64,000 nucleotides of DNA from an uncultured Acidobacteriota bacterium (GTDB taxonomy: Bacteria > Acidobacteriota > Blastocatellia > RBC074). A program made the translations under genes and the position numbers. Shown here in pieces: positions 11,035 to 59,883 of the stretch (the stretch's first letter is position 1; each line of letters opens with the position of its first letter). The notes beneath the pieces are model-generated. The model was given only the letters and a program-made list of their open reading frames with translations, did not search any database and was not told the origin of the DNA. Location of the stretch: the NCBI GenBank assembly GCA_963800895.1, contig CAWDDA010000015.1, forward strand, positions 231,003 through 295,002, read 5' to 3'.

Positions 11035-11049
11035 ATCCTTTTGATTAGA

Positions 11050-11136
11050 GGTATGTTGTACCGGCTTTAGCCGGAATCGTGGCCTTCGCACTATTTCAAA
11101 TGCAACCATTCCGGCTAAACGCCGGTACAACGTACC
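11050..11136. repeat. nested-palindrome repeat, family B copy 1
   Basis: The arms GGTATGTTGTACCGGCTTTAGCCGGAAT and ATTCCGGCTAAACGCCGGTACAACGTACC are reverse complements with 1 mismatch and 1 indel. Each arm contains a CCGGC..GCCGG dyad. Confidence 0.9.
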
Positions 11137-11139
11137 TTT

Positions 11140-15761: not shown

Positions 15762-16790
15762 GAGCGCACCCTCGCCGGTTCGCTTTCGAGTTGAAGTGTC
15801 TTGTGTAGCGCAGCAACCAGCTGCTTCCCGTGAAACCGTGCCATTTTCGATGAAGATCTTGTTGGTCTCCACTCCCGCAATCACTACACCGGCTAGATAG
15901 ATCCCGGGAACATTTGATTCGAATGTATCGGGACTGATTCTCGGTTTCAGAGTATCGGGATCGAGCTCAATGCCGAGACCTCGGAGGAATTCGTAGTCGG
16001 CGTGATAGCCAGTCAACGCAAAGACAAAGTCGTTCCTGATCTCACCTCGCTCGCCGGTTTCGACGTTGAGAGTGCGAATCGTGGTCGTTGCGATCTCGGT
16101 GACGACGGTGTTGAAGAGAGCGGCGATCTCTCCGTTCTTGATGCGATTCGAAATGTCGGGCGCAACCCAGTACTTGAGGCTGCGGCTCAAGTCTGGCCGC
16201 CGATGAATCAAAGTCACTCTGGCTCCGCCACGAAAGAGCTCGAGTGCAGCGTCTGCTGCCGAGTTTCCCGCCCCGATAATGGCCACATCCCGCTCGTAAA
16301 ACGGATGCGCTTCAGTATAGTAATGCGCCACCTTAGGAAGATCCTCTCCAGGGATGCCAAGGTAGTTCGGATTGTCGTAGCAACCTGTCGCGAGGATAAC
16401 CTTGCGCGCACGGTAGCGTGCAGACGTTCCTGTTGCTTCGATCAGAGTAGTGACGGTGAAATCGCCGTCTTGCCCCTCAATCGACAAGACCCGCTCGTAC
16501 TGATTAACTCGAAGCTTGTAGGTATCCACCACGCGCCGATAATACTTGAGCGCTTCGAGCCGGCTCGGCTTCTCGCGCTCGCATATGAGCGGGAGATTGC
16601 CGATCTCCAGCAACTCCGGCGTAGTGAAATAGATCATCTGTGTAGGGAAGCGAAACAGGGAATTGACGACGCAACCCTTCTCGATGACACGATAGTCGAG
16701 GCCAAGGCGTTCGAGCTCAATGGCGCACGCAAGCCCTGTAGGGCCGGCACCAACTACTACTGCATCAAGTAGCGGCTCGCCCCGCATCAT
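15758..16790 (-). CDS. ypdA: YpdA-family FAD-dependent (bacillithiol) disulfide reductase homolog, 1-nt frameshift near 15838-15842
   Basis: VVVGAGPTGLACA and IIGAGNSAADAALEL dinucleotide motifs. The authentic tail RFHGKQLVAALHKTLQLESEPARVRS-TGA is in another frame and overlaps the hemE ATG. Confidence 0.75.
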
Positions 16791-17996
16791 ATCCCTTTGC
16801 GCGTAAGGGCATGGACCTTGAGCGGCAGCCCGAAAATGTTGATAAACCCGCCGGCATCGCGTTGATCATAGCTTGCTCCCATCGTGAACGAAGCGAGATC
16901 GGGGCGATAGAGGGTTTGCGGTGATGTGCGGCCCGCGATGATGACGTTGCCCTTGTAGAGCTTAAGGCGAACTGAGCCACTTACTGGCTCCGCCAGTACA
17001 TTCACAAACGCATCGAGAGCTTCGCGCAGCGGCGTGAACCATTGGCCAAAGTAGACCATTTCAGCATATTTGAGAGCGAGCATTTCCTTGTAATGCGATG
17101 ATTCGCGATCGAGGCAAAGAGCTTCCAACTCTCGAAGCGCCGTAAGGAGGAGCGTGCCGCCGGGCGTTTCGTAACATCCGCGTGACTTGATTCCGACAAG
17201 CCTGTTTTCAACGAGGTCGATCCTGCCCACACCATTGCGGCTGCCGATCTCGTTCAGCTTTTCGAGAAGTGGAACAGGATCGAGCTGCTCACCATTGACG
17301 GAAACAGGGTTCGCCTTGTCAAAGCGCAATCTCGACATACTCAGGTTTGTCTGGCGCATCCTCAGGTGACGATGAAAGGATGTACATCGCTTCTTCGGGT
17401 TCAGATGCAGGGTCTTCGAGAATGCCGCCCTCGTGCGAAATGTGCCAGATGTTGCGATCACGGCTGTAGATCTTTTCGCGGCTGGCCGTAATTGGGATCT
17501 TCCTTTCGTTTGCATAATCGATCGCATCCTCACGCGATACGATGTCCCATTCACGCCACGGCGCGATCACTTTGAGTTGGGGCGCGAGCGCCTGGTAGGT
17601 CAGTTCAAATCGGACCTGATCGTTGCCTTTTCCGGTGCAGCCATGCGCCACCGCATCGCACCCGGTGCGAAGCGCCACTTCAACTTGTTTTTTTGCAATT
17701 ACAGGGCGGGCGAACGAAGTGCCCAATAGATACTTGTGCTCATAGACAGCGCCGGCCCGAACTGTGGGGAAGATGTATTCAGTGACGAATTCGTGGCGCA
17801 GGTCTTCGATATAGATTTCGGATGCACCAGTGTCGAGCGCCTTTTCACGCAATCCCTCGAGTTCTTCGCCTTGCCCTACGTCAGCCGCAACCGCGATCAC
17901 TTCGCAGTTGTAGTGTTCTTTGAGCCAGGGGATGATGATTGAAGTATCAAGCCCGCCGGAGTAGGCAAGGGCGACCCGCTTTGCTGATACAGCCAT
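16787..17996 (-). CDS. argG: argininosuccinate synthase, split by a frameshift near 17322-17335
   Basis: The ORF 17319..17996 holds the N-terminal part ([21 protein letters not shown]). The ORF 16787..17554 holds the C-terminal part ([19 protein letters not shown]). Confidence 0.9.
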
Positions 17997-18050
17997 GTAT
18001 TGTCAGGAACCTCCAAAACTGGGGAGTTGTGCCGAATCAGGAAGTATACA

Positions 18051-18203
18051 TTTGTCATTTGGGGTTTGTCATTTGAGATTTGTCATTCGAGTTTAGAGTT
18101 CAAGCTTTAGCTTGCTCTTGGCTGTATCGAATGCAAACAGCAAGCTAAAGCTTGAACTCTAAACTCGAATGACAAATCTCAAATGACAAACCCCAAATGA
18201 CAA
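18051..18203. repeat. nested-palindrome repeat, family A copy 1 (153 nt, TTTGTCATTTG-type outer arms)
   Basis: Near-perfect inverted repeat. Core GAGTTCAAGCTTTAGCTTGCT at 18096-18116 pairs with AGCAAGCTAAAGCTTGAACTC at 18139-18159. Confidence 0.95.
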
Positions 18204-18224
18204 CGAGTTTGGGTTCGCCCCTTC

Positions 18225-19703
18225 TCAATACTTGGGCATACTCGTATCAACCTGATCTGCCCACGCAGTGATCCCACCCTTGAGATTCTGGATCCTGGTA
18301 TAGCCCGCATTTTTCAGCGTCTCGTAGGCCTTTGCGCTTCGGCCGCCCATCTTGCAGTGCAGAACGACGTCTTCGTCCTGACTGATCTCTGAAAGCCGGT
18401 CCTTGACCTGTCCAAGCGGAATGAGGCGCGAGCCATACTTTTCAAGGTTGGCTATTTGCCATTCATGAGGTTCGCGGACGTCGATGATTGTCAGTTTATC
18501 GCCGCGATCGAGCCGCTCCTTGAGACCAGTAACGGTAATCTCCCAGTCATCGGCGGCACCCTCACCGGTATCCTTTCCGGCAGAGGCCGGTTGGGGCGTC
18601 ACTCCGCAGAATTGGTCGTAATCAATCAGCTCTTTGATCGTCGGATTGTCGCCGCAAAGCGGGCACGCAGGATTGCGTCTCAACTTGAGTTCGCGGAACT
18701 TCATTTTGAGCGCATCGAACAGCAGGAGTCTGCCTATCAGAGGCTCGCCCTGGCCGATGATCAGCTTGATAGCCTCGGTTGCCTGAATCACACCGACAAT
18801 CCCTGGAAGAATTCCAAGAACACCACCTTCCGCGCACGAAGGAACGAGACCTGGCGGCGGCGGCTCCGGGTAGAGGCAGCGATAGCAAGGACCTCCAGCG
18901 GCCGGATAAAATACTGATGCCTGACCATCAAATCGGAAGATCGACCCGTAAACATTCGGCTTGCCAAGAAGCACGCTTGCGTCATTGGCAAGATATCGCG
19001 TCTGGAAATTGTCGGTTCCATCGATAATAACGTCGTAATCTTTGACGATATCCAGTGCGTTGTCCGAGCGAAGCGCGACCGAATAGGTATCAATATGGAC
19101 GTGGGGATTGATGTCCGAGAGGCGATCTCTTGCAGAATCAAGCTTGGGTCTGCCAATGTCCTTGGTTCCGTGGAGAATCTGCCGCTGGAGATTGCTTGCG
19201 TCTACGACGTCGAAATCAACCAGGCCCAGCCGTCCAATTCCAGCAGCAGCCAGATAAAGACCCAAAGGTGAACCAAGTCCGCCCGCACCGATCAGTAGCA
19301 CGCTTGCGGCCTTCATCTTGCGCTGCCCCTCCATGCCTACTTCGGGCATGATGAGATGGCGGCTGTATCGTGCAACCTCTTCGTTCGACAACGTCGGGAG
19401 ATCACTCTTCGCTATTTCGTCCTCGGTCGCCACTCCGCCCGCGATCGAAGGAATGATGCTGACCTCATCGTTCTCGGCGATCACGGGGTCAACTTCGCGG
19501 CCATATCGTATATCTTCGTCATTGACGTAAATGTTGACGAAACTTCGCAGCCGGTTCTCATTGTCAAAAAGATGCTTCTTCAGCTCTGGAAACTGAGAAC
19601 TCAAGTCAGCCAGCACTTCGCTCACTCTGCTCCCGCTGACGGAGATCGCTTCCTGATTGCCGGCATACTGTCGAAGTGCTGTCGGTATCGAGATCTTAGG
19701 CAT
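18225..19703 (-). CDS. CysO-like sulfur carrier (ends IAGG) fused in frame to a MoeZ-type adenylyltransferase/sulfurtransferase (ThiF/MoeB plus rhodanese)
   Basis: MPKISIPTALR..FVNIYVNDEDIRY..IIPSIAGG resembles mycobacterial CysO. It is followed directly by EEVARYSRHLIMPEVG, GAGGLG, two CxxC pairs and a rhodanese HCKMGGRS motif. An AGGAG lies 8 nt before the ATG at 19703. Confidence 0.8.
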   Translation of the reverse strand: MPKISIPTALRQYAGNQEAISVSGSRVSEVLADLSSQFPELKKHLFDNENRLRSFVNIYVNDEDIRYGREVDPVIAENDEVSIIPSIAGGVATEDEIAKSDLPTLSNEEVARYSRHLIMPEVGMEGQRKMKAASVLLIGAGGLGSPLGLYLAAAGIGRLGLVDFDVVDASNLQRQILHGTKDIGRPKLDSARDRLSDINPHVHIDTYSVALRSDNALDIVKDYDVIIDGTDNFQTRYLANDASVLLGKPNVYGSIFRFDGQASVFYPAAGGPCYRCLYPEPPPPGLVPSCAEGGVLGILPGIVGVIQATEAIKLIIGQGEPLIGRLLLFDALKMKFRELKLRRNPACPLCGDNPTIKELIDYDQFCGVTPQPASAGKDTGEGAADDWEITVTGLKERLDRGDKLTIIDVREPHEWQIANLEKYGSRLIPLGQVKDRLSEISQDEDVVLHCKMGGRSAKAYETLKNAGYTRIQNLKGGITAWADQVDTSMPKY

Positions 19704-20129
19704 GACCATTGCTCCTGAGTATTTTCTCTTCATCAAACTGCGACCTGTCCTCGCGGACATTCCACGATCGAATATCACGGGCAACACCATTTTGCACCGA
19801 AACGATCAGATATGACCATTCAATGAAAGGTGCGTGTTCAAGATCAAAAGCAGACGGAACCGCGGGATGGTCCGGATGGGAATGATAATAACCCCAGACC
19901 CCGAGACCACGGCGCGTGGCTTCGCGCTCGGCCCTGGCGTATGCGAGCGGATCGAGGGCGACACGATTATGACGGGAATCCTCGCGTACATTCTCAAGGG
20001 GCGCAATCTCTCGAATCACGCGGACCCCATCTTCGAAGACGCCGAGCAGAAGCCCGCCGCATTCCTCCGGGTAGGTTGCTTCACCGTGCTTGCGAATGGA
20101 ATCCAGGCAGCCAACGCCTACGAGGATGC

Positions 20130-20133
<4 letters not shown>
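19696..20133 (-). CDS. mec: JAMM/MPN+ metallopeptidase (Mec-like)
   Basis: EECGGLLLG and HSHPDHPAVPSAFD form the JAMM motif. It overlaps both neighbouring genes. Confidence 0.85.
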
Positions 20134-21074
<941 letters not shown>

Positions 21075-21134
21075 AACAATTAACCATCATCGGTTCAGAC
21101 ATTGGTGCGATTCTAGCCCATAAGTGCCGTGAAT

Positions 21135-22106
21135 TCAAGGGCACGTTGGGCTGAGGACCAAGGTGAAAGCTTGAACTCCGTACTCAGCACTTCTTTCGTG
21201 CCCGAAGTCAAAAAGGGCTGGATGGAGGACTTCTGCGAGGATCTCGAGTGTCTCCACGAGCCGCGGGCCCGGTCGGCTAAAATAGCTATTGCCATCGGCT
21301 ATGACCACCCGGTCTTCTCTTACCGCCTTCAAGTCGGACCACCCTTGAAGTCCTTGCAGATAATCTATTTCGGCTTTCGTTCGTCTCACATCAAAGCCGC
21401 ATGGGGAAATGATGAGCACATCAGGGTCGGAAGCCGCCAGCTGACTCCATTCCATAAAAGGTGAGTGTCGTCCTGCTTCACCAAAGAGGTTCAATCCCCC
21501 GGCCATTTCGATTAACTCGGGGATCCAGTTTCCTCCGGCCATCAACGGATTAATCCATTCAATGAATGCGACTCGCGGCCGAGTCATCGCACTTTCAGCC
21601 CGCTCCTTGATCGCCATCATCCTGTTTTCGAGTTGACTGACCAGCGCTGCCGCTTCCTCGTCGACGCCAAGGGCAACGCCAACTCGCTCGATGTCTGACC
21701 AGACATCGGCGAGAGAGTTCGGCTCGAGTGAGACAATCGCCGGGTTGGATGAAGTCAATTGACAAACCGCCTCTTCGACATCGCGCAGGCTGACCGCGCA
21801 AACCTCGCACTGCGATTGAGTGATTATGTGTGATGGCCTGAGCTCATCGAGCATTCGGGCATCAACACGATAGACGCTCAAGCCTTCCTGAACGATGGCT
21901 TTTACGCGCTGGTCGATTTCATAGCTTATTCCCTCGACATCGAATTTCGGGCTTGTGCAAACGGGGAGGGAAGTGACTGACGCGGGAAAATCGCATTCGT
22001 GAGATCTCCCCACTAAGGCTTTCTCGAGACCAAGAGCACAAACAATCTCAGTGGCACTGGCGATAAGTGAAACGATGCGAAGTGCTGTCATACTGCATCG
22101 TAGCAT
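21135..22106 (-). CDS. BtuF/FhuD-like (Peripla_BP_2) binding-protein homolog without signal peptide
   Basis: RIVSLIASATEIVCALGL, PDVLIISPCG and GPRLVETLEILA are typical of cobalamin/siderophore-binding folds. Confidence 0.6.
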   Translation of the reverse strand: MLRCSMTALRIVSLIASATEIVCALGLEKALVGRSHECDFPASVTSLPVCTSPKFDVEGISYEIDQRVKAIVQEGLSVYRVDARMLDELRPSHIITQSQCEVCAVSLRDVEEAVCQLTSSNPAIVSLEPNSLADVWSDIERVGVALGVDEEAAALVSQLENRMMAIKERAESAMTRPRVAFIEWINPLMAGGNWIPELIEMAGGLNLFGEAGRHSPFMEWSQLAASDPDVLIISPCGFDVRRTKAEIDYLQGLQGWSDLKAVREDRVVIADGNSYFSRPGPRLVETLEILAEVLHPALFDFGHERSAEYGVQAFTLVLSPTCP

Positions 22107-22118
22107 GTAGTACTGTAT

Positions 22119-22188
22119 GGAGTTCAGGCTTTTAGCTTGCTCGATTCGAATACTATCTGTATGCGAGCAAGCTAAAAGCTTGAACTCC
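22119..22188. repeat. nested-palindrome repeat, family A copy 2
   Basis: GGAGTTCAGGCTTTTAGCTTGCTCG pairs with CGAGCAAGCTAAAAGCTTGAACTCC with 1 mismatch. It lies in a divergent intergenic region. Confidence 0.9.
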
Positions 22189-22225
22189 GTACCCGGTACT
22201 CAATCTTGCGATAGTCTTCATCACT

Positions 22226-23170
22226 ATGAAAGAATTGATCCCAATGCTTGAACAGCGCAGGGTTGGTGACAATCTCTGGTTCTACAGTCCGGGAGCGACG
22301 TCGCTCGAAATGCTTGGACGTTATGCTCCGAAGCGATTGGTTCCCGAAGTTCACGATTCAGAAAACGATGTCGGAAGGGCGATGCTCGCTGAGCTCGACG
22401 ACCTGGCACGACAAAAGACCGGAGACCTGGTCATCATCATCCTCGGCGGCCGCGGAGCACAGGCGCTTCACCGGCTCCTCGGTGAACGCGCGCGTACTCC
22501 CTCGAACAACCCGGACGTTGACGATTTGATCCCGCGGCTTCACGTCTTCACACAGGACGGGCTCGCTCCGATGCGCATGGGCAGCAGTCTCAGCTTTGTT
22601 CGCGACTTCGAACGCCTGTTGGGTGATGAATTCTTCCGTCAGGTCAAGAGCTTCACGACAGTCCGCACCGACTCGCCGGATCTGGAGAACGAAGTGCGTG
22701 CATATATCAAGAAACTGGACGCGCTCGGAGGCTCTGACATCTTCTTTCTGGGACATGGCCCTGAAGCCGGCGCTGCATCGCATCTTGCATATATCAAGCC
22801 AGGCTCGGGAGCCACAGCGATCGACGTGGCAGGGTTGATACCTATCTCTTCGAGCATTCTTGAACATCACATTACCAAGTTCAAAGCGGGCGGTACTTCA
22901 GTGAATCCTGATGACGAAGCTGAGTGCCGATCCGCAACTCATATTTTTACGCTTGGTCCGGCTGCAATTCTCAGCTCAAGACGTATTGTGCAGTCAATCG
23001 TGGACGCGGAGACGGCGCCGGCAAAGCGCGCCAGTTACCGGCGGGTCCTCGAAACTGAACTGTCGAAGGATCTTAAAGCGCTCGAATCACAACTTGACGA
23101 AAACCCGGGACTCTGGGTGCGGCTTCATCCCAATGTGCGGTCGCTTGTGCTTCCCAACGTGATTGAGTAG
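22226..23170 (+). CDS. glucosamine-6-phosphate deaminase / 6-phosphogluconolactonase-fold protein
   Basis: LVIIILGGRGAQ and DIFFLGHGPEAGAASHLAY resemble the NagB/Pgl family. Confidence 0.5.
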   Translation: MKELIPMLEQRRVGDNLWFYSPGATSLEMLGRYAPKRLVPEVHDSENDVGRAMLAELDDLARQKTGDLVIIILGGRGAQALHRLLGERARTPSNNPDVDDLIPRLHVFTQDGLAPMRMGSSLSFVRDFERLLGDEFFRQVKSFTTVRTDSPDLENEVRAYIKKLDALGGSDIFFLGHGPEAGAASHLAYIKPGSGATAIDVAGLIPISSSILEHHITKFKAGGTSVNPDDEAECRSATHIFTLGPAAILSSRRIVQSIVDAETAPAKRASYRRVLETELSKDLKALESQLDENPGLWVRLHPNVRSLVLPNVIE

Positions 23171-23198
23171 AACACCTGAAGCTGAAAGGGAAAAAAAG

Positions 23199-24773
23199 AT
23201 GTCAACTGTTCTCAATCGACTGCTCACCTCGCAAGGACTCGAGCCCCATCTCACTGAAACTGACCAGACCGCGGTTGTGAGCGACCTCGAGATACTCTCG
23301 GGCCTTCGAGTCTATCCGCGCTCTATTACCGCAAAGGATGGGTCTATATTCTTTCTTGGTGATCGCGATGGGACAAAACTGCTTGCCTGTCTTTCGAAAG
23401 GTCAGGGGCTTGCACAGAACATCCCGGGCGAGTCGATGAAGGTCGAAGCAGATGGTGACGAACTTTCACTAAGGTTATGCGCGACGTCTGACGCTGCAGC
23501 AAACGGACTTCGAGGTATCCTGCCCTGGCTTGTACCTAAAACCCTGGGTCTTGCGAAGTCGGCAGGTTGTGGAGACAGGCTTGGGCTTGCGACGCCGGGA
23601 CACGTCAGAGCAATCCGTCGCTCATCAATGGCGCCCATCTTTGCTCAGCAGTCGATTCGCGAGAACGCGCGCACCGGGCGTACACCGCAGCAGGTAATGG
23701 ACGAAGCCCTGTGGGGCGTCTTTCAGGAGGGCTGGCGAGAGGGATTTGGCGCCGATGCCGACCATTTGAAGAATACGGACGACATCGATGCCTGCGCGAC
23801 GGCCGGCTATACTTTCTACACCATTGACCCGGGCGAGTATGTAGATAACGAAGCCAACACCGCTCCCGTTGAGACTCTAAGACAAAAGGTGGCGGCGCTT
23901 CCATGGGGCGAGCTCGAGACGACATGGGATGAAGTCAGGTCGCAGCTTGGCAACGGCCCGATCGGACTTGGCTCTATTCAGCTGGAGATCAATGAGGAAC
24001 AGCTGCTGAGAGCTACGGCAAAGTATGGCCGCGTCGTGGCGCATACCGCGAAAATGTACCGCCATCTCGAAAGGGTGATGGGTGAAAAGGACTTTGAGCT
24101 GGAAATGAGCGTTGACGAAACTGAAACCGTAACAACTCTTGCGGAGCATGTTTTTATTGCGCATGAGCTCAAGCGCCTTGGGGTCAAGTGGGTCAGCCTT
24201 GCTCCGAGATATGTCGGAGACTTCGAGAAAGGGGTCGACTATATCGGAGATGTTGGAGCGTTTGAGAAATCGTTTGCGGAACATCTGGCAGTCGCCGAGA
24301 CGTATGGTCCATACAAGTTAAGCCTGCACTCTGGATCTGACAAATTCAGAATCTATCCCATTGCCGGGCGCCTGGCTGGTAACCTCGTACATCTGAAGAC
24401 GGCCGGCACCAGTTATCTCGAGGCTCTGAGAGCAATTGGAAAAACAAACGCAGGACTCTTTCGAGAGATCGTTTCGTTTGCTCGCGAGCGTTATCCCATC
24501 GATCGCGCAACCTATCATGTGTCAGCTGAAGTTGAGAAGATGTCGGATATTTCATCGTGGTCTGATGATCAGCTGACGGATCTGTTGAATGACTTTCACG
24601 CGCGCGAAATCCTGCACGTCACTTTCGGGTCGGTCCTTCACCATCCGGCATTTCGCGAGCGGTTCTTTGCAACCCTTCGCGAAAACGAGGAAACGTATGC
24701 CGAAATGATCGAAACTCACTTCGCAAAACATTTCGCCGGATTCGAAGAAACAAACGCCGTCCGAGGCATGTAG
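23199..24773 (+). CDS. uxaE: tagaturonate/fructuronate epimerase (UxaE family)
   Basis: GDRLGLATPGHVRA, PIFAQQSIRENARTGRT, GFGADADHLK, SVDETET, SLHSGSDKF and LKTAGTSYLEA match my recollection of Thermotoga UxaE. Confidence 0.8.
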   Translation: MSTVLNRLLTSQGLEPHLTETDQTAVVSDLEILSGLRVYPRSITAKDGSIFFLGDRDGTKLLACLSKGQGLAQNIPGESMKVEADGDELSLRLCATSDAAANGLRGILPWLVPKTLGLAKSAGCGDRLGLATPGHVRAIRRSSMAPIFAQQSIRENARTGRTPQQVMDEALWGVFQEGWREGFGADADHLKNTDDIDACATAGYTFYTIDPGEYVDNEANTAPVETLRQKVAALPWGELETTWDEVRSQLGNGPIGLGSIQLEINEEQLLRATAKYGRVVAHTAKMYRHLERVMGEKDFELEMSVDETETVTTLAEHVFIAHELKRLGVKWVSLAPRYVGDFEKGVDYIGDVGAFEKSFAEHLAVAETYGPYKLSLHSGSDKFRIYPIAGRLAGNLVHLKTAGTSYLEALRAIGKTNAGLFREIVSFARERYPIDRATYHVSAEVEKMSDISSWSDDQLTDLLNDFHAREILHVTFGSVLHHPAFRERFFATLRENEETYAEMIETHFAKHFAGFEETNAVRGM

Positions 24774-24783
24774 GACCGCCTTC

Positions 24784-25638
24784 ATGCGGAATCCTCTTGA
24801 TCACATGGACATTACGAAGGCCTACGATTTCACTGATCGGACCGTGGTCGTCACCGGGGGAACGGGTATCCTTTGCAGCGCAATGGTGCGAGCTTTGGTG
24901 AGGTGTGGGGCAAATGTAGCCGTACTCGCGCGCAACATTGACAAGGCTGAAGGTCTAGTCCGTTCGCTCATGGCCGGCGAAAAGGGGAATGGTAAGGCAG
25001 AAGCGGTCAAGGGTGATGTTCTCGACAAGGAAGCTCTCGCGCGGGCTGCAGACGAGATCATGTCACGGTTCGGTACGATCCACGCCCTTATTAATGGAGC
25101 GGGTGGAAACAGTGCGCAGGCAACCACGGGGCCAGACCAGACATTCTTTGATCTTCCGGAAGAAGGTCTCCGCTATGTATTTGACCTGAACTTTGTCGGT
25201 ACTGTCTTGCCGACGCAGGTCTTTGGCAGGCGAATGGCGGAGCAAGGTGATGGCGTGATTCTTAACATCTCATCAATGAGCGCCATCAAACCTTTGACAC
25301 GTGTGATCAGTTATTCCGCGGCGAAGGCAGCAATCGACAATTTTACGCAGTGGCTGGCAGTTTATCTTGCACGCGAATACTCACCAGGACTGCGAGTCAA
25401 TGCCGTCGCACCCGGTTTTTTCGTGACTGAGCAGAATCGCAATCTACTTGTAGATGAGGCATCGGGAAATCTGACAGAGCGCGGCGAGAGTATCATTGCG
25501 CACACTCCAATGGGGCGTTTTGGCAATCCCGAGGACCTTATAGGTGCCGTTCTCTGGCTGTTGTCGCCCGCTTCATCCTTCGTTACGGGCGTAGTTGTTC
25601 CCGTCGACGGCGGGTTCACGGCTTTCAGTGGAGTATAG
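24784..25638 (+). CDS. short-chain dehydrogenase/reductase (possible sugar-acid reductase)
   Basis: TGGTGILC Rossmann motif and a YSAAKAA catalytic motif. Confidence 0.8.
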   Translation: MRNPLDHMDITKAYDFTDRTVVVTGGTGILCSAMVRALVRCGANVAVLARNIDKAEGLVRSLMAGEKGNGKAEAVKGDVLDKEALARAADEIMSRFGTIHALINGAGGNSAQATTGPDQTFFDLPEEGLRYVFDLNFVGTVLPTQVFGRRMAEQGDGVILNISSMSAIKPLTRVISYSAAKAAIDNFTQWLAVYLAREYSPGLRVNAVAPGFFVTEQNRNLLVDEASGNLTERGESIIAHTPMGRFGNPEDLIGAVLWLLSPASSFVTGVVVPVDGGFTAFSGV

Positions 25639-26913
25639 ATGACTATCGGGGCAGGGTTTGAAGACCGGCTTCTCGAGGACAGCGAAGTCCATGAGTTTAT
25701 CAGGCGCGCATTTGACGTGCCTTCAATGAACACCCTCCGCATAATTGTCATTTTGCCCGATGGCACGCGTACGGCACCTGTACCGCTTATGTTCCGCGAG
25801 CTCAATCACGCACTCGGCAAGCGCGTAGCCGCGCTCGATTTCCTGATTGCGCTCGGTACTCATCAGCCAATGTCTCAAGATGCGATCAATGCGCATCTTG
25901 GAATAACCAGCGAAGAGCGGAGAACCACTTACGGGCGTTCGCAGATTGTCAACCATCAGTGGGATGACCCGAATACTTTCACGACACTTGGACGTATCTC
26001 AGCCGAGGAAATAGGCGAGTTGACCGGCGGTATTCTTGAAGACCCGGTAGACGTCCGCCTCAACAAGATGGTGCTCGACTACGATCTCATAGTCATTTGC
26101 GGGCCGACGTTTCCGCACGAAGTGGTCGGATTCTCAGGTGGCAACAAGTATTTTTTTCCGGGAATTGGCGGCTCCGAAGTGATCAATTTTTCGCACTGGC
26201 TGGGCGCGCTTATCACAAGTTATGAAACGATCGGATCGAAATATACGCCCGTTCGCAGAGTAATCGACCGGGCTGCGTCATTCATTACAAAGCCGAAACT
26301 ATGCATAAGCATGGTGGTCAAGTCTGGCGGTCTTGCAGGTCTTTTTATCGGTTCTCCCGAAGAAGCCTACTCTGACGCTGCTGATCTTTCAGCGAAGTTG
26401 CACGTCCGCTGGGTCGAAAGACCATTTCAGAAGATCCTTTCGGTTATGCCTCCGATGTACGCTGACCTCTGGACAGCAGCGAAGGGAATGTACAAGCTTG
26501 AGCCGGCAGTTGCAGACGGCGGCGAAGTGATCATTTATGCGCCTCACCTGGACGAGGTCAGCTATACCCACGGACGCTATCTCGACGAGATCGGATACCA
26601 TGTCAGGGATTACTTTCTAAAGCAGTGGGAGCGGTTCAAAGATTATCCAGGCGGTGTTCTTGCCCACAGCACCCATCTCAAGGGTGTTGGAGAGTATGAT
26701 GTCGGGACGGGAATCGAGACACCGCGCATCAATGTCACGCTTGCGACGAAGATCCCGGAGGATCGCTGCCGCCGATTGAATCTGGGCTACCTCGACCCTG
26801 ACTCGATTGATCTACGGGATTGGGAAGGTCGGGAGGACCAGGGTGTCCTCTTTGTTCCACGCGCCGGCGAAATGCTCTACCGCGTCTCCGAGGTACGTTG
26901 TACCGGCTTATAG
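25639..26913 (+). CDS. LarA-like nickel-pincer-dependent 2-hydroxyacid racemase/epimerase family protein
   Basis: ALGTHQPM, TFPHEVVGFSGGNKYFFPG and SHWLGA correspond to the LarA catalytic His/His/Lys/His positions. The last ~7 codons lie in repeat B2. Confidence 0.75.
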   Translation: MTIGAGFEDRLLEDSEVHEFIRRAFDVPSMNTLRIIVILPDGTRTAPVPLMFRELNHALGKRVAALDFLIALGTHQPMSQDAINAHLGITSEERRTTYGRSQIVNHQWDDPNTFTTLGRISAEEIGELTGGILEDPVDVRLNKMVLDYDLIVICGPTFPHEVVGFSGGNKYFFPGIGGSEVINFSHWLGALITSYETIGSKYTPVRRVIDRAASFITKPKLCISMVVKSGGLAGLFIGSPEEAYSDAADLSAKLHVRWVERPFQKILSVMPPMYADLWTAAKGMYKLEPAVADGGEVIIYAPHLDEVSYTHGRYLDEIGYHVRDYFLKQWERFKDYPGGVLAHSTHLKGVGEYDVGTGIETPRINVTLATKIPEDRCRRLNLGYLDPDSIDLRDWEGREDQGVLFVPRAGEMLYRVSEVRCTGL

Positions 26914-26979
26914 CCGGAATGGTTACTTCCACACCTTCTTCAAGTAACAATTCCGGCTACAAGCCGGTACAACATGCCT
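26891..26979. repeat. nested-palindrome repeat, family B copy 2
   Basis: AGGTACGTTGTACCGGCTTATAGCCGGAAT pairs with ATTCCGGCTACAAGCCGGTACAACATGCCT. The stem continues into the loop (GTTACTT/AAGTAAC). Confidence 0.9.
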
Positions 26980-27000
26980 TGAACGTACCGTTCAATACAT

Positions 27001-28329
27001 ATGGAAGCTCTCACGCTGCATCGCCTGCATTTTGCCTTCACTATTACCTTTCACTATCTCTTTCCTCAGATCACGATGGGCCTGGCGCTCTTGATTGTCA
27101 TTCTCAAGACGCTATACCTCAGGAAGGGCGACGAAAAGTACAACAAGGCAGCGCGATTCTGGGCGAAGATCTTTGGGATCAGCTTTGTCTTCGGCGTGAT
27201 CACAGGTATCCCTATGGAGTTCCAGTTTGGAACAAACTGGGCGCGGTTTTCGACTTTCGCTGGAGGGGTGATCGGGCAGACGCTGGCTATGGAGGGAACG
27301 TTTGCCTTCTTTCTCGAGTCGGCGTTTCTCGGGCTCTTCCTTTATGGCGAGAAAAGACTCGGACGCCTGGGACATTGGTTCGCGGCGCTCATGGTCTTCA
27401 TAGGAGCATGGCTTTCGGGTTACTTCATTATTGCCACAAATGCCTGGATGCAGCACCCGGTGGCGTATGTTGTTGCAGCGGATGGGACAGTTCACGTTTC
27501 TGATTTCTGGGCTTTGCTCTTCAATTCGTGGGCCTTCTGGCAGTATCTGCACAACATGGGAGGCGCGGTCGTAACAGGATCGTTCTTCATGGCCGCCGTG
27601 GGAGCATTTTATGTTTTGAGGAGGGATCAGCACGATTACGGAAGGCTGTTCCTGCGGCTTGGGATATCAGCAGCGTTTGCAGCTTCAATCTGGCAGTTGT
27701 TTCCAACGGGAGACCGGCAGGGTCAGTTACTTGCTAAACACCAGCCGGTAACCCTCGCGGCAATGGAGGGTTTGTTCAAGACAGAGTCTGGAGCGCCGCT
27801 TGCTCTCGTCGGCCAACCAAACACCGATCAGGAAAGGCTGGACAACCCTCTATTCATTCCCAGGGCACTCAGTTTCCTCACTCATCGCCGCTGGAATGCG
27901 GAGGTGAAAGGGCTCGATGCGTTTCCTCGAGATGAATGGCCCGACAACATTCCGCTCCTTTATTACAGCTATCACATCATGGTCGGGCTCGGAACGATCT
28001 TTATCGCAATCACTTCACTGGCGATGTTTCAAATGTGGCGAAAGAAGCTCGAAGTGTCTCGTGCTCTGCTCTGGGTGATAATGCTAACGTTTCCGTTTCC
28101 ATTTATCGCCAACACCGCGGGCTGGACTACTGCAGAGCTCGGTCGCCAGCCATGGCTTGTATTCCAGCTGCTGCGCACAGCAGATGGGGCTTCAATGAAC
28201 GTGTCTTCCGGCAATGCGCTGTTTTCGCTGATCGGCTTCATGGGTATGTATACCGTGCTTTCGATTCTCTTCGTGTTGCTGATCTGGCGAGACATCCATC
28301 ATGGTCCGGAACATGGGACGGATCATTAG
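27001..28329 (+). CDS. cydA: cytochrome bd ubiquinol oxidase subunit I
   Basis: FHYLFPQ, GIPMEFQFGTNW and the GRQPW motif. Confidence 0.95.
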   Translation: MEALTLHRLHFAFTITFHYLFPQITMGLALLIVILKTLYLRKGDEKYNKAARFWAKIFGISFVFGVITGIPMEFQFGTNWARFSTFAGGVIGQTLAMEGTFAFFLESAFLGLFLYGEKRLGRLGHWFAALMVFIGAWLSGYFIIATNAWMQHPVAYVVAADGTVHVSDFWALLFNSWAFWQYLHNMGGAVVTGSFFMAAVGAFYVLRRDQHDYGRLFLRLGISAAFAASIWQLFPTGDRQGQLLAKHQPVTLAAMEGLFKTESGAPLALVGQPNTDQERLDNPLFIPRALSFLTHRRWNAEVKGLDAFPRDEWPDNIPLLYYSYHIMVGLGTIFIAITSLAMFQMWRKKLEVSRALLWVIMLTFPFPFIANTAGWTTAELGRQPWLVFQLLRTADGASMNVSSGNALFSLIGFMGMYTVLSILFVLLIWRDIHHGPEHGTDH

Positions 28330-28347
28330 ACAGGGAATATTTCGAAG

Positions 28348-29472
28348 ATGGAGACCTTCTGGTTCTGCGCCATCGCATTCATGTCGACTGCTTACGTTGT
28401 GCTCGACGGGTTTGACCTCGGTGCGGGCGCGATTCTTCATTTCATTGCGCGATCGGAGCGCGAGCGGCGGAGTGTGTTTGACGCTATCGGCCCTGTTTGG
28501 GACGGAAACGAGGTGTGGCTGGTTGCCGCCGGAGGTACTCTCTTTTTTGCCTTCCCGGTTGTCTATGCTTCGAGCTTCAGCGGTTTCTATTTGCCACTGA
28601 TGATGGTTCTCTGGCTGCTCATGCTTCGGGGAATCGGAATCGAGCTGCGGCACCACATCGATCACGAAATGTGGCGATCATTGTGGGACGTTGTCTTTTC
28701 AGGAGCTAGTCTGCTGCTGACGTTGTTCCTGGGTGTAGCCCTGGCCAACGTGATTCGCGGAGTACCGCTTGACGCAGCGAAGCAGTTCTTCGAGCCACTC
28801 TGGACCGACTTTCGCGTAGGCACAACTACAGGAATACTGGACTGGTATACCGTAATTGCAGGTGTTGTCGCCGTGGTGGCTCTTTCGATTCACGGCGCCC
28901 ACTTTATTGCCGCCAAGACAACCGGCCCGATTAATCAACGTGCTCGCTCACTGGCATCGGCCGGATGGTGGATGCTGGTTGTGGTAACTGGTGTCAGTCT
29001 TGTAGCGACGCTTAGCGTCAGATCTCAGATTCGCGAGAACTTTCAGTCACGGCCCTGGTTTGTATTGTTTCCAGCTATTGTCATTATCAGCCTGGGGGCG
29101 ATGAAATATTTTCAAAGAGCAAATCGTGAATGGCCCGCCTTCTATTCCTCAGCAGGTTACCTTGCCGGGATGCTTCTCGGCGGTGCTGCTGGTCTTTATC
29201 CGGCGCTTTTGCCGGCGATCAGCGATCCCGCGCTGGACCTCACGATCTACAACTCACAGGCTGGCGAATATGGATTGCGTGTGGGAACAATCTGGTGGTC
29301 GATTGGTATCGTACTGGCGATTGGGTATTTCATTTATGTTTACAGCTCGGTTCGGGGAAAAGTAACTGTCGAACCCCGGACCGTCCCGGCGTCTCTCCTT
29401 CAACCGGAGTTCGTGAAAAGGAAGAGCCGGTCTGAGGCAGCAGTACTTTCAAGCACCTATTCCCCAAAATAG
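28348..29472 (+). CDS. cydB: cytochrome bd ubiquinol oxidase subunit II
   Basis: DGFDLGAG and WDGNEVWL motifs; it follows cydA. Confidence 0.9.
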   Translation: METFWFCAIAFMSTAYVVLDGFDLGAGAILHFIARSERERRSVFDAIGPVWDGNEVWLVAAGGTLFFAFPVVYASSFSGFYLPLMMVLWLLMLRGIGIELRHHIDHEMWRSLWDVVFSGASLLLTLFLGVALANVIRGVPLDAAKQFFEPLWTDFRVGTTTGILDWYTVIAGVVAVVALSIHGAHFIAAKTTGPINQRARSLASAGWWMLVVVTGVSLVATLSVRSQIRENFQSRPWFVLFPAIVIISLGAMKYFQRANREWPAFYSSAGYLAGMLLGGAAGLYPALLPAISDPALDLTIYNSQAGEYGLRVGTIWWSIGIVLAIGYFIYVYSSVRGKVTVEPRTVPASLLQPEFVKRKSRSEAAVLSSTYSPK

Positions 29473-29543
29473 TTTGAGTTCAAGCTTTAGCTTGTGGTTA
29501 CGAGCTCTAGTGATAAGAGCGAGCTAAAGCTTGAACTCCAAAC
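29472..29543. repeat. nested-palindrome repeat, family A copy 3
   Basis: GTTTGAGTTCAAGCTTTAGCT pairs with AGCTAAAGCTTGAACTCCAAAC, between convergent genes. Confidence 0.9.
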
Positions 29544-29558
29544 CGGACCCCTGCTTCT

Positions 29559-31708: not shown

Positions 31709-31780
31709 TACGATTGAGCGGTCAAAAGGTTCAGATACCACGCGACAATCCGGCCGGCTGCCGATAGAATCCCGAATCAT

Positions 31781-32542
31781 ATGGATTTCGATGACCTCTT
31801 CAAGTTCCTGAATATTGTCAATCGTCAGGCAGGTGCTATTGTTCGGCGTTACTATGGCCGCCAGATCGAAGTTACAAGGAAATCCGACCGGACGCCGGTG
31901 ACTGATGCCGATCGTGAAGTCGAGAGGTTTCTGCGAGCAGCAATCGAACGCCAGTTTCCGACGCATTCGATTCTCGGTGAAGAGCTCGGTGAAGTCTCCA
32001 AAGAAGGAGGGTTTCGCTGGGTCATCGACCCTATCGATGGAACGAAAACATTCCTCCTGCGAACGCCACTCTTTGGCATTCTTCTCGCCCTCGAGAACAA
32101 CGGTGTACCCATTCTCGGATCCATCTATCTCCCAATACAGGATCAATTGATGATTGGCTCAAGAGAGACCGGGACATTCCTCAACGGTGTTGCAAGTTCA
32201 GTTTCAAAGGTTTCACGGATGGACGAAGCTCGGCTGATGATTACCGATCCGTCTTGTCTGACTGGTCCGAACCGCGATCCTGGAATTCAACGCCTGATCG
32301 AAAGCGTTGAGCTGACAAGAGGCTTTGGAGATTGTTACGGGTATTTCCTGGTCGCTTCGGGAGCCGCCGATATCATGGTTGACCCTATCCTTGCCTACCA
32401 CGATCTTGCGGCACTCATTCCGATCATTGAGGGCGCTGGTGGCCGGCTGACCTCGCGCGATGGTCAGGACGCGCTAACTGCGAAGTCCGCCGTCGCGACG
32501 AATGGTCTTTTGCATGAAGAGGCTGTGAGGTTGCTTAGGTAG
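31781..32542 (+). CDS. inositol monophosphatase family protein (HisN-like)
   Basis: GEELG, WVIDPIDGT and GDCYGY motifs. Confidence 0.8.
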   Translation: MDFDDLFKFLNIVNRQAGAIVRRYYGRQIEVTRKSDRTPVTDADREVERFLRAAIERQFPTHSILGEELGEVSKEGGFRWVIDPIDGTKTFLLRTPLFGILLALENNGVPILGSIYLPIQDQLMIGSRETGTFLNGVASSVSKVSRMDEARLMITDPSCLTGPNRDPGIQRLIESVELTRGFGDCYGYFLVASGAADIMVDPILAYHDLAALIPIIEGAGGRLTSRDGQDALTAKSAVATNGLLHEEAVRLLR

Positions 32543-32701
32543 TGGCCGGTCAGTGGTGGATGCAGGGGTCTGAGTGTAACAACAAGCTAAAGCTTGAACT
32601 CAAACTTCGTGTGCCTGATTTTAAGTTTGAGTTCAAGCTTCAGCTTGTTGTTACACTCAAACCCCACCGCGACCGCCCACTGCCCACTGCCCACTGACCA
32701 C
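32542..32701. repeat. nested-palindrome repeat, family A copy 4 (inside-out arm order, CCCACTG-type outer arms)
   Basis: GAGTGTAACAACAAGCTAAAGCTTGAACTCAAACT (32572-32606) pairs with AGTTTGAGTTCAAGCTTCAGCTTGTTGTTACACTC (32624-32658). CCCACTG x3 lies on the right flank. Confidence 0.9.
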
Positions 32702-32707
32702 TCACTC

Positions 32708-37525: not shown

Positions 37526-37599
37526 AAGGGACCTCCAGCGTTACCGCTAACGAGTGTCGCGTATAGTATCCGTTACCGATAACAATGTCAAGATACGTC

Positions 37600-37690
37600 C
37601 AGGCATGTTGTACCGGCTTGTAGCCGGAATCTTCACATTCAGATAGTTCGAATGCGACCGTTCCGGCTACAAGCCGGTACGACATGCCTG
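37600..37690. repeat. nested-palindrome repeat, family B copy 3
   Basis: CAGGCATGTTGTACCGGCTTGTAGCCGGAAT pairs with TTCCGGCTACAAGCCGGTACGACATGCCTG. Confidence 0.9.
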
Positions 37691-37703
37691 GGTAAAAGCG
37701 AAC

Positions 37704-42972: not shown

Positions 42973-43134
42973 TCTCTGCCGGATCCCGGATCGAGTGCAA
43001 ACCGGTGAGGTTGTGTTAGCCCGACCATTAGGGAAAGCTTGCAACGATGCGTGTTTTCTCGAAGCCCTCCCTTACGGTCGGGCTACTGACACGCTTCGGG
43101 AGGCGTGTTCTGACGAGCCACATTTTTTCAGAGT

Positions 43135-45097: not shown

Positions 45098-45110
45098 GGA
45101 GGTGGGCTTT
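45066..45110 (-). terminator. GC-rich hairpin followed by a U-tract downstream of the mltD-like gene, overlapping the comM SD/start
   Basis: On the minus strand: AAAGCCCACCTCC, a 19-nt loop, then GGAGGTGGGTTTTGCTTTTC. Confidence 0.4.
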
Positions 45111-45165
45111 AAGGTGGCCTTTGAGGTGGCCTGTTACTGACTGGTTAAAAACTTAGATTGCGATA

Positions 45166-49530: not shown

Positions 49531-49541
49531 CGAAAGAAAGA

Positions 49542-49663
49542 AGGTGCTGAGTGCTGAGTGGTGCTGAGTATGGAGTTCAAGCTTCAGCTTGCTCTTCGAA
49601 TTCGATCGTGCCGAGAGCAAGCTAAAGCTTGAACTCCAAACTCAGCACCCAGCACTCAGCACT
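49542..49663. repeat. nested-palindrome repeat, family A copy 5 (GTGCTGAGT-type outer arms)
   Basis: AGGTGCTGAGTGCTGAGTGGTGCTGAGTATGGAGTTCAAGCTTCAGCTTGCTCT pairs with its imperfect reverse complement. Confidence 0.95.
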
Positions 49664-49672
49664 TCTTCCTCT

Positions 49673-56837: not shown

Positions 56838-56985
56838 AGAAGAAGGTGCTGAGTGCTGAGTGCTGGGTGCTGAGTATGGAGTTCAAGCTTTTAGCTTGCT
56901 CTTGGCCCAATCGAATTTGACGACAGCAAGCTAAAGCTTGAACTCCATACTCAGCACTCAGCACTCAGCACTCAGCACCTTCTTC
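56838..56985. repeat. nested-palindrome repeat, family A copy 6 (GTGCTGAGT-type outer arms, 148 nt)
   Basis: The left arm 56838-56900 pairs with the right arm 56925-56985. The right end overlaps the stop codon of the VWA gene. Confidence 0.95.
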
Positions 56986-59694: not shown

Positions 59695-59779
59695 AGAAAA
59701 GAAGTTCAACAGAAGGAAACAAAGGTAACGAAGGAATTATCATTTTAGTAACCTGTAACAGTGACTTCGCAAGTCGCCT

Positions 59780-59863: not shown

Positions 59864-59883
59864 GGGCGCTTCAAATCAACGAC

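What the first reader, a model, noticed from the sequence alone, without database searches (positions are those of the whole stretch)
18051..18203. Family A composite nested-palindrome repeat (core GAGTTCAAGCTTTAGCTTGC), six dispersed intergenic copies
Copies lie at 18051-18203, 22119-22188, 29472-29543, 32542-32701, 49542-49663 and 56838-56985. Each is a long inverted repeat of 70-160 nt whose arms carry the same ~20-nt core. The core is itself a dyad (CAAGCT-TT-AGCTTG, including a HindIII site), so each element can form either one long hairpin or a cruciform with arm hairpins. Three copies sit exactly between convergent stop codons, two between same-strand genes and one in a divergent promoter region. 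None encodes a protein. I do not recognise them as REP/BIME/ERIC-type elements. Six copies in 64 kb suggests a high genome-wide copy number.
Basis: seen in the sequence. Interest (0 to 1): 0.65.

Follow-up and report, generated by a model that had tools for sequence, protein, structure and literature searches.

The report
REPIN-type mobile palindromes in an acidobacterium
The six nested palindromes are real and are best read as a soil acidobacterium's version of REP/REPIN elements, small hairpin repeats copied around the genome by a single-copy tyrosine transposase (RAYT); this is a known kind of element in a new sequence family and host group.

Summary
Verdict: a new REP/REPIN family of a known kind, with moderate interest.

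**Observation.** It is confirmed. Six intergenic palindromes each carry two inverted copies of GAGTTCAAGCTT(T/C)AGCTTG: 9 hits against 0 expected.

**Interpretation.**
- The repeated unit is 24 nt: a tag GTTYAGAGTN followed by a 5-bp hairpin with a TTYA loop.
- The hairpin stem covaries strongly: 96% of cells pair against 71% in shuffles, 0 of 500 shuffles reaching the observed value.
- In 78 of 79 loci found through a 199-aa Y1/HUH transposase alone, that gene lies within 400 nt of such units. The transposase's only solved relative is E. coli TnpA_REP. Where both flanks were readable, the units usually sat inverted on either side of the gene.
- The unit type tracks the transposase clade.
- A covariance model built only from those gene-flanking units recovers exactly the 12 window units, plus a missed relic at 21157-21183.

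**Mobility and copy number.** Relatives at 93% and 82% nucleotide identity (and a third at 93% protein identity) show gain, loss or replacement at five orthologous sites. Soil metagenomes hold the element at roughly 30-50 times the depth of its flanks.

**Outer arms.** The heptamer arms are a lineage-specific extra, seen in 8 of 91 doublets.

**Limits.** The RAYT gene is not in this window. Its presence in this genome, and any terminator role, are untested.

The parts
18052..18203 (.). Copy 1. Tag-outward REP doublet (units 18091-18116 + and 18139-18164 -) inside 71-nt arms built of 7/14-nt repeats (CATTTGT type). It lies between a moeB-like gene's stop and the argG start, both on the minus strand.
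   Evidence: units E 3.7e-12
21157..21183 (-). The 93%-identical relative L197 has a complete doublet at this site.
   Evidence: (E 0.0037)
22115..22192 (.). Copy 2. Tag-outward doublet with a TTTTA loop variant (units 22115-22141 + and 22166-22192 -) and no heptamer arms, in a divergent intergenic region. It is present in all three related genomes, with the spacer replaced.
29471..29543 (.). Copy 3. Tag-outward doublet (units 29471-29496 + and 29518-29543 -) between the convergent cydB and a 252-aa gene. It is absent at the orthologous site of both relatives, which carry other palindromes there.
32541..32702 (.). Copy 4. Tag-inward doublet (units 32581-32606 - and 32624-32649 +) nested in arms of CCACTG-type heptamers (array 32675-32702). 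It lies between the convergent hisN-like gene and a fragmented fucosidase gene.
49538..49668 (.). Copy 5. Tag-outward doublet (units 49568-49593 + and 49616-49641 -) with GTGCTGA heptamer arms, between the convergent LemA-like and anti-sigma genes. A different palindrome family sits at this site in relative L199.
56839..56985 (.). Copy 6. Tag-outward doublet (units 56874-56900 + and 56925-56950 -) with four GTGCTGA heptamers on each arm, between the convergent mnmA and a 308-aa gene. The stop codons abut or overlap the palindrome.

Best explanation
Family A is a family of REP (repetitive extragenic palindrome) units. Most are arranged as inverted doublets, that is, REPIN/BIME-type elements.

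**The unit.** It is 24 nt: a 5' tag GTTYA-GAGT-N (GTWYR-GAGTT in this window), then a 5-bp stem C-N-N-N-C, a TTYA loop and the complementary stem.

**Proposed mechanism.**
1. When DNA is single-stranded, for example at the replication fork, each unit folds into its small hairpin.
2. A single-copy REP-associated tyrosine transposase (RAYT/TnpA_REP, an HUH-Y1 enzyme) is encoded elsewhere in the genome between two inverted units.
3. This enzyme recognises hairpin plus tag, and cuts and rejoins the strand. That spreads doublets to new intergenic sites, mostly the gaps between convergent genes.
4. There the long hairpin is tolerated. It probably also serves as a transcript-end structure.

**The outer heptamer arms.** They are a separate, lineage-specific layer: slippage-prone arrays that are in phase with the tag's own 7-nt repeat (GTTCAGA|GTTCAAG).

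**Shown here:** the unit anatomy, covariation of the small hairpin, the link to the RAYT gene in relatives, co-variation of unit type with RAYT clade, gain/loss/replacement between close relatives, and high abundance.

**Inferred:** binding and cleavage by the RAYT, single-strand transposition, presence of the RAYT in this genome, a role at transcript ends, and the origin of the heptamers.
For: 1. **Nested architecture and stability:**
2. **The small hairpin is what is conserved.**
   - Among 39 distinct cores taken from loci found by protein, not by DNA motif, 96.4% of cells pair against 70.6% in shuffles.
   - There are 54 double-sided changes against 17, and 0 of 500 shuffles reach the observed value.
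   - The two arms of one doublet often carry different stems.
3. **Unbiased scan of RAYT loci.** It found 242 perfect 5-bp/TTYA hairpins in 265 kb, against about 4 expected. Of these, 231 have GAGT at -5 to -2 and GTT[CT]A at -10 to -6.
4. **The partner gene.**
   - A 199-aa protein passes Pfam Y1_Tnp (24.9 bits against a cut-off of 23).
   - Its HUH motif is LPNHYH and its tyrosine lies in NYVHHNPV.
   - Its only PDB match is 4ER8, E. coli TnpA_REP (E 1.6e-7).
   - In 80 metagenome loci found by protein similarity, a unit lies within 400 nt upstream in 48 of 74 and downstream in 46 of 71. The typical geometry is a + unit about 48 nt before the ATG and a - unit 25-65 nt after the stop.
   - With variant tags allowed, 78 of 79 loci have a unit within 400 nt of the gene.
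5. **Unit type follows RAYT clade:** 71% against 63% amino-acid identity, permutation 0 of 500.
6. **Independent model test.** Model R1 was built only from RAYT-flanking units of other genomes. In the window it finds exactly the 12 units (E 4e-12 to 2e-4) and the relic.
7. **Turnover in relatives**:
   - Site 3 is filled only in the window.
   - Site 21157 is full in L197, a relic in the window and not detected in L198.
   - Site 4's heptamer arms are shared, but the inner doublet is absent in L198.
   - Site 5 is replaced by another family in L199.
   - Site 6 has a different heptamer count and a damaged unit in L199.
8. **Abundance.** Contig word depth is 94, 186 and 149 over the element, against about 3-6 in the flanks, in three soil metagenomes.
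Against: - No RAYT gene lies in the 64-kb window or in the 62 kb held from three close relatives. A partner in this genome is therefore assumed, not shown.
- The canonical REP tag GT[AG]G directly at the hairpin foot is not present; the tag is GAGT-N. The stem is only 5 bp, shorter than in the published REP descriptor (7-20 bp, PMC6006769).
- No clean empty site or excision footprint was found. Orthologous differences are replacements by other palindromes, not simple insertions.
- Unit sequences in related loci are not independent samples, so the covariation and co-evolution statistics are inflated by shared descent.
- The RAYT association was tested only in Acidobacteriota-type loci, not in the Verrucomicrobiota that also carry the core.
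Confidence: 0.82

Rival explanations
1. The elements are host-selected transcript-end hairpins, acting as bidirectional terminators or 3' mRNA stabilisers. They are now immobile, either as fossil REPINs whose transposase has been lost or as structures kept purely for their RNA role.
For: - Four of the six sit between convergent stop codons and fill the whole gap.
- The hairpins are very stable.
- At sites 3 and 5 relatives carry a different palindrome in the same gap, as if any strong hairpin will do.
- Canonical intrinsic terminators are not enriched in this region: 16 found against 16.8 in shuffles.
Against: - There is no T-run after any element.
- What is conserved is the small tagged hairpin, not the long stem: the arms of one doublet can carry different stems.
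- The same 24-nt unit flanks RAYT genes.
- One copy is in a divergent promoter region and one is upstream of argG.
- This reading is compatible with the best explanation as a secondary role; it does not replace it.
Confidence: 0.12
2. The elements are a MITE: a deletion derivative of an ordinary insertion sequence, moved by a DDE transposase through its terminal inverted repeats.
For: They are short, non-coding and palindromic, with high copy number and patchy presence among relatives.
Against: - No target-site duplications are visible at the borders.
- Single units and both doublet orientations occur.
- Covariation points to a folded single-strand hairpin, not a duplex terminal repeat.
- The gene consistently found between inverted units is a Y1/HUH enzyme, not a DDE transposase.
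Confidence: 0.03
3. The element is a structured regulatory RNA or a protein-binding RNA hairpin, and selection on the RNA explains the covariation.
For: There are compensatory changes in the 5-bp stem and a conserved tetraloop. One metatranscriptome contains contigs carrying the element.
Against: - No Rfam family matches beyond generic hairpin models.
- Units occur in both orientations at each locus and in every gene context, so no consistent transcript strand exists.
- The flanking of RAYT genes is a DNA-level signature.
Confidence: 0.03

Closest known systems
REP / BIME / REPIN elements with their RAYT (TnpA_REP) of Proteobacteria: E. coli REP-BIME with RayT, Pseudomonas fluorescens REPINs (PMC3116915, PMC3337134, PMC3479197, PMC6006769)
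   Same: - A short tagged hairpin unit, arranged in inverted doublets that form a larger hairpin, with both relative orientations present.
- Strictly intergenic, and frequent at 3' ends of genes.
- Tens or more copies.
- A Y1/HUH gene flanked by inverted copies of its own repeat (a REPtron).
- Repeat type co-varies with the transposase.
- Patchy presence at orthologous sites.
   Different: - The tag is GTTYA-GAGT-N, not GT[AG]G at the hairpin foot.
- The stem is only 5 bp, with a conserved TTYA tetraloop.
- The hosts are Acidobacteriota (Blastocatellia/Pyrinomonadaceae-like).
- The exact 19-mer core also occurs in Verrucomicrobiota, Planctomycetota and Lentisphaerota genomes, whereas published REPs are described as species-specific.
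- Some copies carry heptamer-repeat arms.
TnpA_Y1 subclass 2.8 of Quentin et al. 2018 (PMC6006769)
   Same: The published signature is 199 aa with motifs NHYH, W[YH] and YIHYNP. The paper notes close relatives outside Cyanobacteria in nr. The protein family here is 199 aa with LPNHYH, VW[YHF]N and YVHHNP.
   Different: - The assignment rests on motif comparison with the paper's table only; no subclass 2.8 sequence was aligned here.
- The paper reports long canonical GT[AG]G REPs for that subclass in Cyanobacteria. The units here are short and GAGT-tagged.
Cyanobacterial STRR heptanucleotide repeats (from my own knowledge of the literature, not checked here)
   Same: Both are tandem 7-nt repeats in intergenic DNA, often as inverted arrays able to form hairpins. 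One heptamer here (TTTGTCA) differs by one base from STRR2 (TTGGTCA) as I recall it.
   Different: - The phylum is different.
- Here the arrays flank a REP doublet and are in phase with the unit's own tag.
- No link between STRRs and RAYTs was found in the papers searched.
Intrinsic (Rho-independent) terminators
   Same: A stable hairpin placed directly after stop codons, often between convergent genes.
   Different: There is no U/T tract, the same sequence recurs at many loci, and the stems are far longer than usual.

Membership tests
REP / REPIN-RAYT system | Short imperfect palindrome repeated many times, outside genes | tested here: met
   There are 12 full units plus 1 relic in 64 kb, all intergenic. 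More than 115 loci occur in public genomes. Metagenome depth is about 30-50 times that of the flanks.
REP / REPIN-RAYT system | Units paired in inverted orientation to form a larger hairpin (REPIN/BIME) | tested here: met
   There are six doublets, five tag-outward and one tag-inward. Long hairpins fold at -23 to -80 kcal/mol. Tag-inward junctions are common in metagenome contigs.
REP / REPIN-RAYT system | Conserved tetranucleotide GT[AG]G 0-2 nt 5' of the hairpin foot | tested here: not met
   The conserved 5' flank is GTT[CT]A-GAGT-N, with GAGT at -5 to -2 in 231 of 242 hairpins. A conserved single-sided tag exists, but not the canonical one. GTAG occurs 9-10 nt upstream in only some REPtrons.
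REP / REPIN-RAYT system | A RAYT gene flanked by inverted copies of the same unit (REPtron) | tested here: met
   This is met in related genomes. Units lie upstream in 48 of 74 loci, downstream in 46 of 71 and on both sides in 41. With variant tags, 78 of 79 loci have a unit within 400 nt. It is not seen in the window or in L197-L199.
REP / REPIN-RAYT system | The partner protein is an HUH-Y1 transposase related to TnpA_REP | tested here: met
   It passes Pfam Y1_Tnp above the gathering score. The HUH and Tyr motifs are conserved. The only PDB match is 4ER8, TnpA_REP.
REP / REPIN-RAYT system | RAYT present, typically in single copy, in the same genome as the repeats | not testable with these tools
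Homologue clusters mostly sit on 1-3 contigs each, which fits single copy but does not prove it.
REP / REPIN-RAYT system | RAYT binds and cleaves the single-stranded unit | not testable with these tools
   This needs biochemistry.
REP / REPIN-RAYT system | Copies come and go between close relatives | tested here: met
   Five orthologous sites differ among the window, L197, L198 and L199.
MITE (IS-derived, DDE transposase) | Terminal inverted repeats bounded by target-site duplications | tested here: not met
   No direct repeats flank the six copies. Single units and both orientations occur.
Intrinsic terminator | G+C-rich hairpin followed by a T-run | tested here: not met
   None of copies 1-4 is called in the 17000-34000 scan, which is at chance level overall. 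The sequences show no T-run after copies 5 and 6.
Any curated RNA family (Rfam 15) | Match at or near the family's gathering score | tested here: not met
   There are no matches at gathering score in the window. Only generic miRNA-precursor hairpin models match, far below threshold.

The most novel reading that the evidence does not exclude
One RAYT-REP system with an almost invariant 24-nt recognition unit is shared across at least four phyla: Acidobacteriota, Verrucomicrobiota, Planctomycetota and Lentisphaerota. Each phylum has its own tag spacing. This would mean either horizontal spread or extreme conservation, against the published view that REPIN-RAYT systems are species-specific and vertically inherited. 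In addition, the unit's tag is itself a 7-nt tandem repeat. It may seed in-phase heptamer arrays of the STRR kind, whose origin in cyanobacteria (which also carry this RAYT subclass) has never been explained.
Probability: 0.25. Interest if true: 0.65.

Novelty: new member of a known kind. Interest (0 to 1): 0.4.

Why it matters
- **Host range.** REPIN-RAYT systems have been studied almost only in Proteobacteria. This is a well-supported example in soil Acidobacteriota.
- **A compact, testable recognition unit.** It consists of a 10-nt tag, a 5-bp stem and a tetraloop, with natural compensatory variants. That suits tests of how a Y1 enzyme reads a hairpin.
- **Annotation.** Recognising the family explains much of the intergenic DNA between convergent genes in these poorly known genomes. 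It also explains contig breaks in short-read assemblies.
- **Markers.** The copies can serve as markers for strain-level comparison.
- **Open leads.** The cross-phylum core and the heptamer arms go beyond the known picture.

Tried and rejected
- **Rfam.** The gathering search on the whole window gave no match. Permissive searches on two elements gave only generic miRNA-hairpin models.
- **Cyanobacterial origin.** The HIP1 octamer is not meaningfully enriched, 9 against 3.8 expected. Protein hits place the window in Blastocatellia-like Acidobacteriota.
- **Terminator scan.** No element has a T-run.
- **RAYT in the window or close relatives.** Searches with phmmer (E. coli RayT) and with a profile of the new family found nothing there.
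- **Exact-protein look-up of a window gene.** It is not on record, probably because the called start codon differs.
- **Plasmid collection searched with the RAYT protein.** It returned only four distant hits, so gave no route to cyanobacterial relatives.
- **Literature.** The 19-mer appears in no searchable paper; the four hits to the 12-mer are cloning primers. No paper links heptamer repeats with RAYTs. The supplements of PMC6006769 hold none of these sequences.
- **Metatranscriptome X13.** It is too shallow to show transcript ends.
- **Heptamer arms as an intrinsic part of the family.** Rejected, because only 8 of 91 doublets carry them.

Full report
**1.

The six elements are at the stated coordinates. 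The 20-mer core with up to 3 mismatches occurs 9 times, against none in 100 shuffles. The remaining three arms differ only by a one-base longer loop. All six are inverted repeats. As single strands they fold into long hairpins of -23.5 to -79.6 kcal/mol, with z-scores from -7.6 to -21.9.

All six lie between ORFs. Copies 3, 4, 5 and 6 lie between convergent genes, and the stop codons touch the palindrome. Copy 1 lies between two minus-strand genes. Copy 2 lies between divergent genes. Copy 4 has its two units turned inward.

The outer arms of copies 1, 4, 5 and 6 are inverted arrays of 7-nt tandem repeats.

**2. The core is not private to this genome.**

By record title, about 76 are Acidobacteriota (mostly Pyrinomonadaceae and Blastocatellia), 28 Verrucomicrobiota, 3 Planctomycetota and 3 Lentisphaerota.

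Protein hits place the window itself in Blastocatellia-like Acidobacteriota. Soil and rhizosphere metagenomes hold it.

**3. The real repeat unit is smaller than the palindrome.**

In the fetched loci the partner arm of a doublet often has a different stem. L013, for example, pairs GAGTTCAGCCTTTAGGCTG with GAGTTCAAGCTTTAGCTTG.
- A regex that did not demand pairing found 196 units. In 187 of them the three variable stem positions were complementary.
- On 39 distinct cores taken from loci found by protein similarity, the 5-bp helix pairs in 96.4% of cells against 70.6% in shuffles.
- There are 54 double-sided changes against 17, and a covariation score of 0.654 against 0.165. None of 500 shuffles reached these values, and slid controls collapse.
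- An unbiased scan for perfect 5-bp hairpins with a TTYA loop in those loci found 242, against about 4 expected by chance. Of these, 231 had GAGT at -5 to -2 and GTT[CT]A at -10 to -6.

The unit is therefore GTTYA-GAGT-N / CNNNC-TTYA-GNNNG, 24 nt in all. The HindIII site is a by-product of one stem variant.

**4. The partner gene.**

Searching all ORFs of the fetched loci with E. coli RayT (taken from locus L116) gave two hits. The one in L046 (Pyrinomonadaceae) is flanked by two family A units upstream and one inverted unit downstream.
- It passes Pfam Y1_Tnp.
- It has 1393 homologues at E up to 1e-5. These are mostly 199 aa, and several are named REP-associated tyrosine transposase by JGI.
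- The HUH motif (LPNHYH) and the tyrosine (NYVHHNPV) are conserved.
- The only solved relative is 4ER8, E. coli TnpA_REP bound to a REP (E 1.6e-7).

The length and motifs match the published signature of TnpA_Y1 subclass 2.8: 199 aa with NHYH, W[YH] and YIHYNP. The authors describe that subclass as cyanobacterial, with close relatives in other phyla (PMC6006769). I did not align against a subclass 2.8 sequence.

**5. The association is general.**

Eighty metagenome loci were retrieved through the protein alone.
- A family A type unit lies within 400 nt upstream in 48 of 74 loci and downstream in 46 of 71. It lies on both sides in 41.
- The geometry is constant: a + unit about 48 nt before the start and a - unit 25-65 nt after the stop. 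Only three units lie elsewhere in the flanks.
- The remaining loci carry variants of the same design: GAGTACAAGC..., GAGTACCGAC..., GAGTCCCGCC... and GAGTACCGGC....
- Allowing these, 78 of 79 loci have a unit next to the gene.
- Unit type follows the protein clade: 71% against 63% identity, permutation 0 of 500. Shared descent inflates this statistic.

A covariance model built only from these gene-flanking units was then run on the window with filters off.
- It returned exactly the 12 units of the six elements (E 3.7e-12 to 1.6e-4).
- It also returned a relic at 21157-21183 (E 0.004) and one unit of a second palindrome family at 11058-11076.

This is the REPtron signature that defines REP-RAYT systems.

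**6. Gain, loss and replacement.**

Three syntenic contigs from other samples were fetched.

| Locus | Similarity to the window |
|---|---|
| L197 | 93% nucleotide identity |
| L198 | 82% nucleotide identity |
| L199 | MnmA 93% amino-acid identity |

| Site | Window | Relatives |
|---|---|---|
| Site 2 (22115) | Doublet | Present in L197 and L198; units conserved, spacer replaced by different self-complementary sequences |
| Site 3 (29471) | Family A doublet | L197 has a heptamer palindrome; L198 has a GGTACCGCCTTCAGGCGG-type doublet |
| Site 4 (32541) | Inward doublet inside CCACTG heptamer arms | L197 is the same; L198 has the same arms around a different centre with no family A units |
| Site 21157 | Relic | L197 has a full doublet; no unit was detected in L198 |
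| Site 5 (49538) | Doublet | L199 has a palindrome of another family |
| Site 6 (56839) | Doublet | L199 has 3 rather than 4 left heptamers, a 7-nt deletion in the right unit and about 12 right heptamers |

No clean empty site was found.

**7. Abundance.**

In three soil metagenomes the contig word depth over 49552-49698 is 94, 186 and 149, against about 3-6 in the flanks. That is roughly 30-50 times, though related genomes in the same soils contribute. Many contigs join units in the inward orientation with short palindromic spacers. Both orientations are therefore common, as in E. coli BIMEs.

**8. The heptamer arms.**

Only 8 of 91 doublets in all held sequence have period-7 arms, mostly in the window's own lineage.

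The arrays are in phase with the tag, which is itself a 7-nt repeat (GTTCAGA|GTTCAAG). Copy 6 reads GTGCTGA|GTGCTGA|GTGCTGG|GTGCTGA|GTATGGA|GTTCAAG.

Array length varies between orthologues. A heptamer palindrome without any unit exists at 63522-63612.

I infer slippage-driven arrays, in some cases older than the doublet they enclose (site 4). Their origin is not settled.

**9. What it is not.**
- It matches no Rfam family.
- It has no T-run, and terminator-like sites are at chance level in the region.
- It has no target-site duplications.
- It is not an assembly artefact, because independent assemblies carry orthologous copies.

**10. Comparison with what is known, and verdict.**

Published surveys sort REPs into GTAG- and CGTC-tagged superfamilies (PMC3733652). 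They also describe the REP descriptor as GT[AG]G plus a 7-20 bp stem (PMC6006769). This family has a GAGT-N tag and a 5-bp stem, so it fails that one criterion and would escape such descriptors. It meets the others: the doublets, the intergenic position, the REPtron, the Y1 partner and the turnover between relatives.

The 19-mer is in no searchable paper.

I file it as a new member of a known kind. Confidence is 0.82 that it is a REP/REPIN family tied to this RAYT family. Confidence is lower, about 0.6, that it is still being mobilised in this genome, because the RAYT gene was not seen here.

A role at transcript ends is plausible by position and by analogy with E. coli REPs. It is untested.

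Noticed in passing
window 11049-11137, 26891-26979, 37599-37691: A second palindrome family, also made of inverted doublets. Its unit is GTATGTTGTA-CCGGC-TTTA/TTGT-GCCGG. It has the same hairpin as the RAYT-flanking variant GAGTA-CCGGC-TTTA-GCCGG, but with TTGT in place of GAGT in the tag. Model R1 picks up one unit (E 0.002). The 26891 and 37599 copies are shared with L197.
   Followed up: partly
window 59775-59868; also L003 rc 3650-3700 and 4410-4450; L199 3785-3945: A third palindrome family, GGGAGCGCCAGGCTCCAGCCTGGCGC. Similar units flank a second, more distant RAYT-like gene in L003. A related element fills site 5 in relative L199.
   Followed up: partly
window 63522-63612: An inverted pair of ATTTGTC heptamer arrays with a unique 30-nt centre and no REP unit (-20.4 kcal/mol, z -6.7). 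Heptamer palindromes therefore exist on their own.
   Followed up: partly
window 16787-17996 and 32708-33903: argG is split into two overlapping ORFs. The alpha-L-fucosidase gene is split into three, whereas L197 has it whole. These are frameshifts that could be long-read assembly errors or pseudogenes. L198 shows the same kind of fragmentation.
   Followed up: no
window 29377-29472: The cydB ORF has about 30 extra 3' codons compared with L197, and they run right up to the doublet. The event that brought the element appears to have replaced the gene's C-terminal tail and stop codon.
   Followed up: partly
window 18043-18072 (minus strand): A 10-of-12 match to a sigma-70-type promoter (ATGACA, 18 nt, TATACT) lies in the left heptamer arm of copy 1, facing the argG start. 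The TGACAA heptamers resemble -35 boxes.
   Followed up: no
L028 2802-3480 (Verrucomicrobiota MAG171): There are four tandem 220-bp repeats. Each contains one family A unit and one GAGTTCACGC-type unit. This is a higher-order array not seen in the window.
   Followed up: no
L001-L115: The tag spacing differs by phylum. It is GTT[CT]A-GAGT in Acidobacteriota and GTTG-GAGT (one base shorter) in Verrucomicrobiota, Planctomycetota and Lentisphaerota. This argues that the cross-phylum hits are real subfamilies rather than binning contamination.
   Followed up: partly
window 43299-43407 and 45100-45132: There is a 33-nt tandem repeat (2.7 copies) and a 12-nt repeat AGGTGGCCTTTA (2.8 copies). The second lies in an intergenic gap. 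A weak degenerate unit-like match is at 43126-43145 (E 0.012).
   Followed up: no
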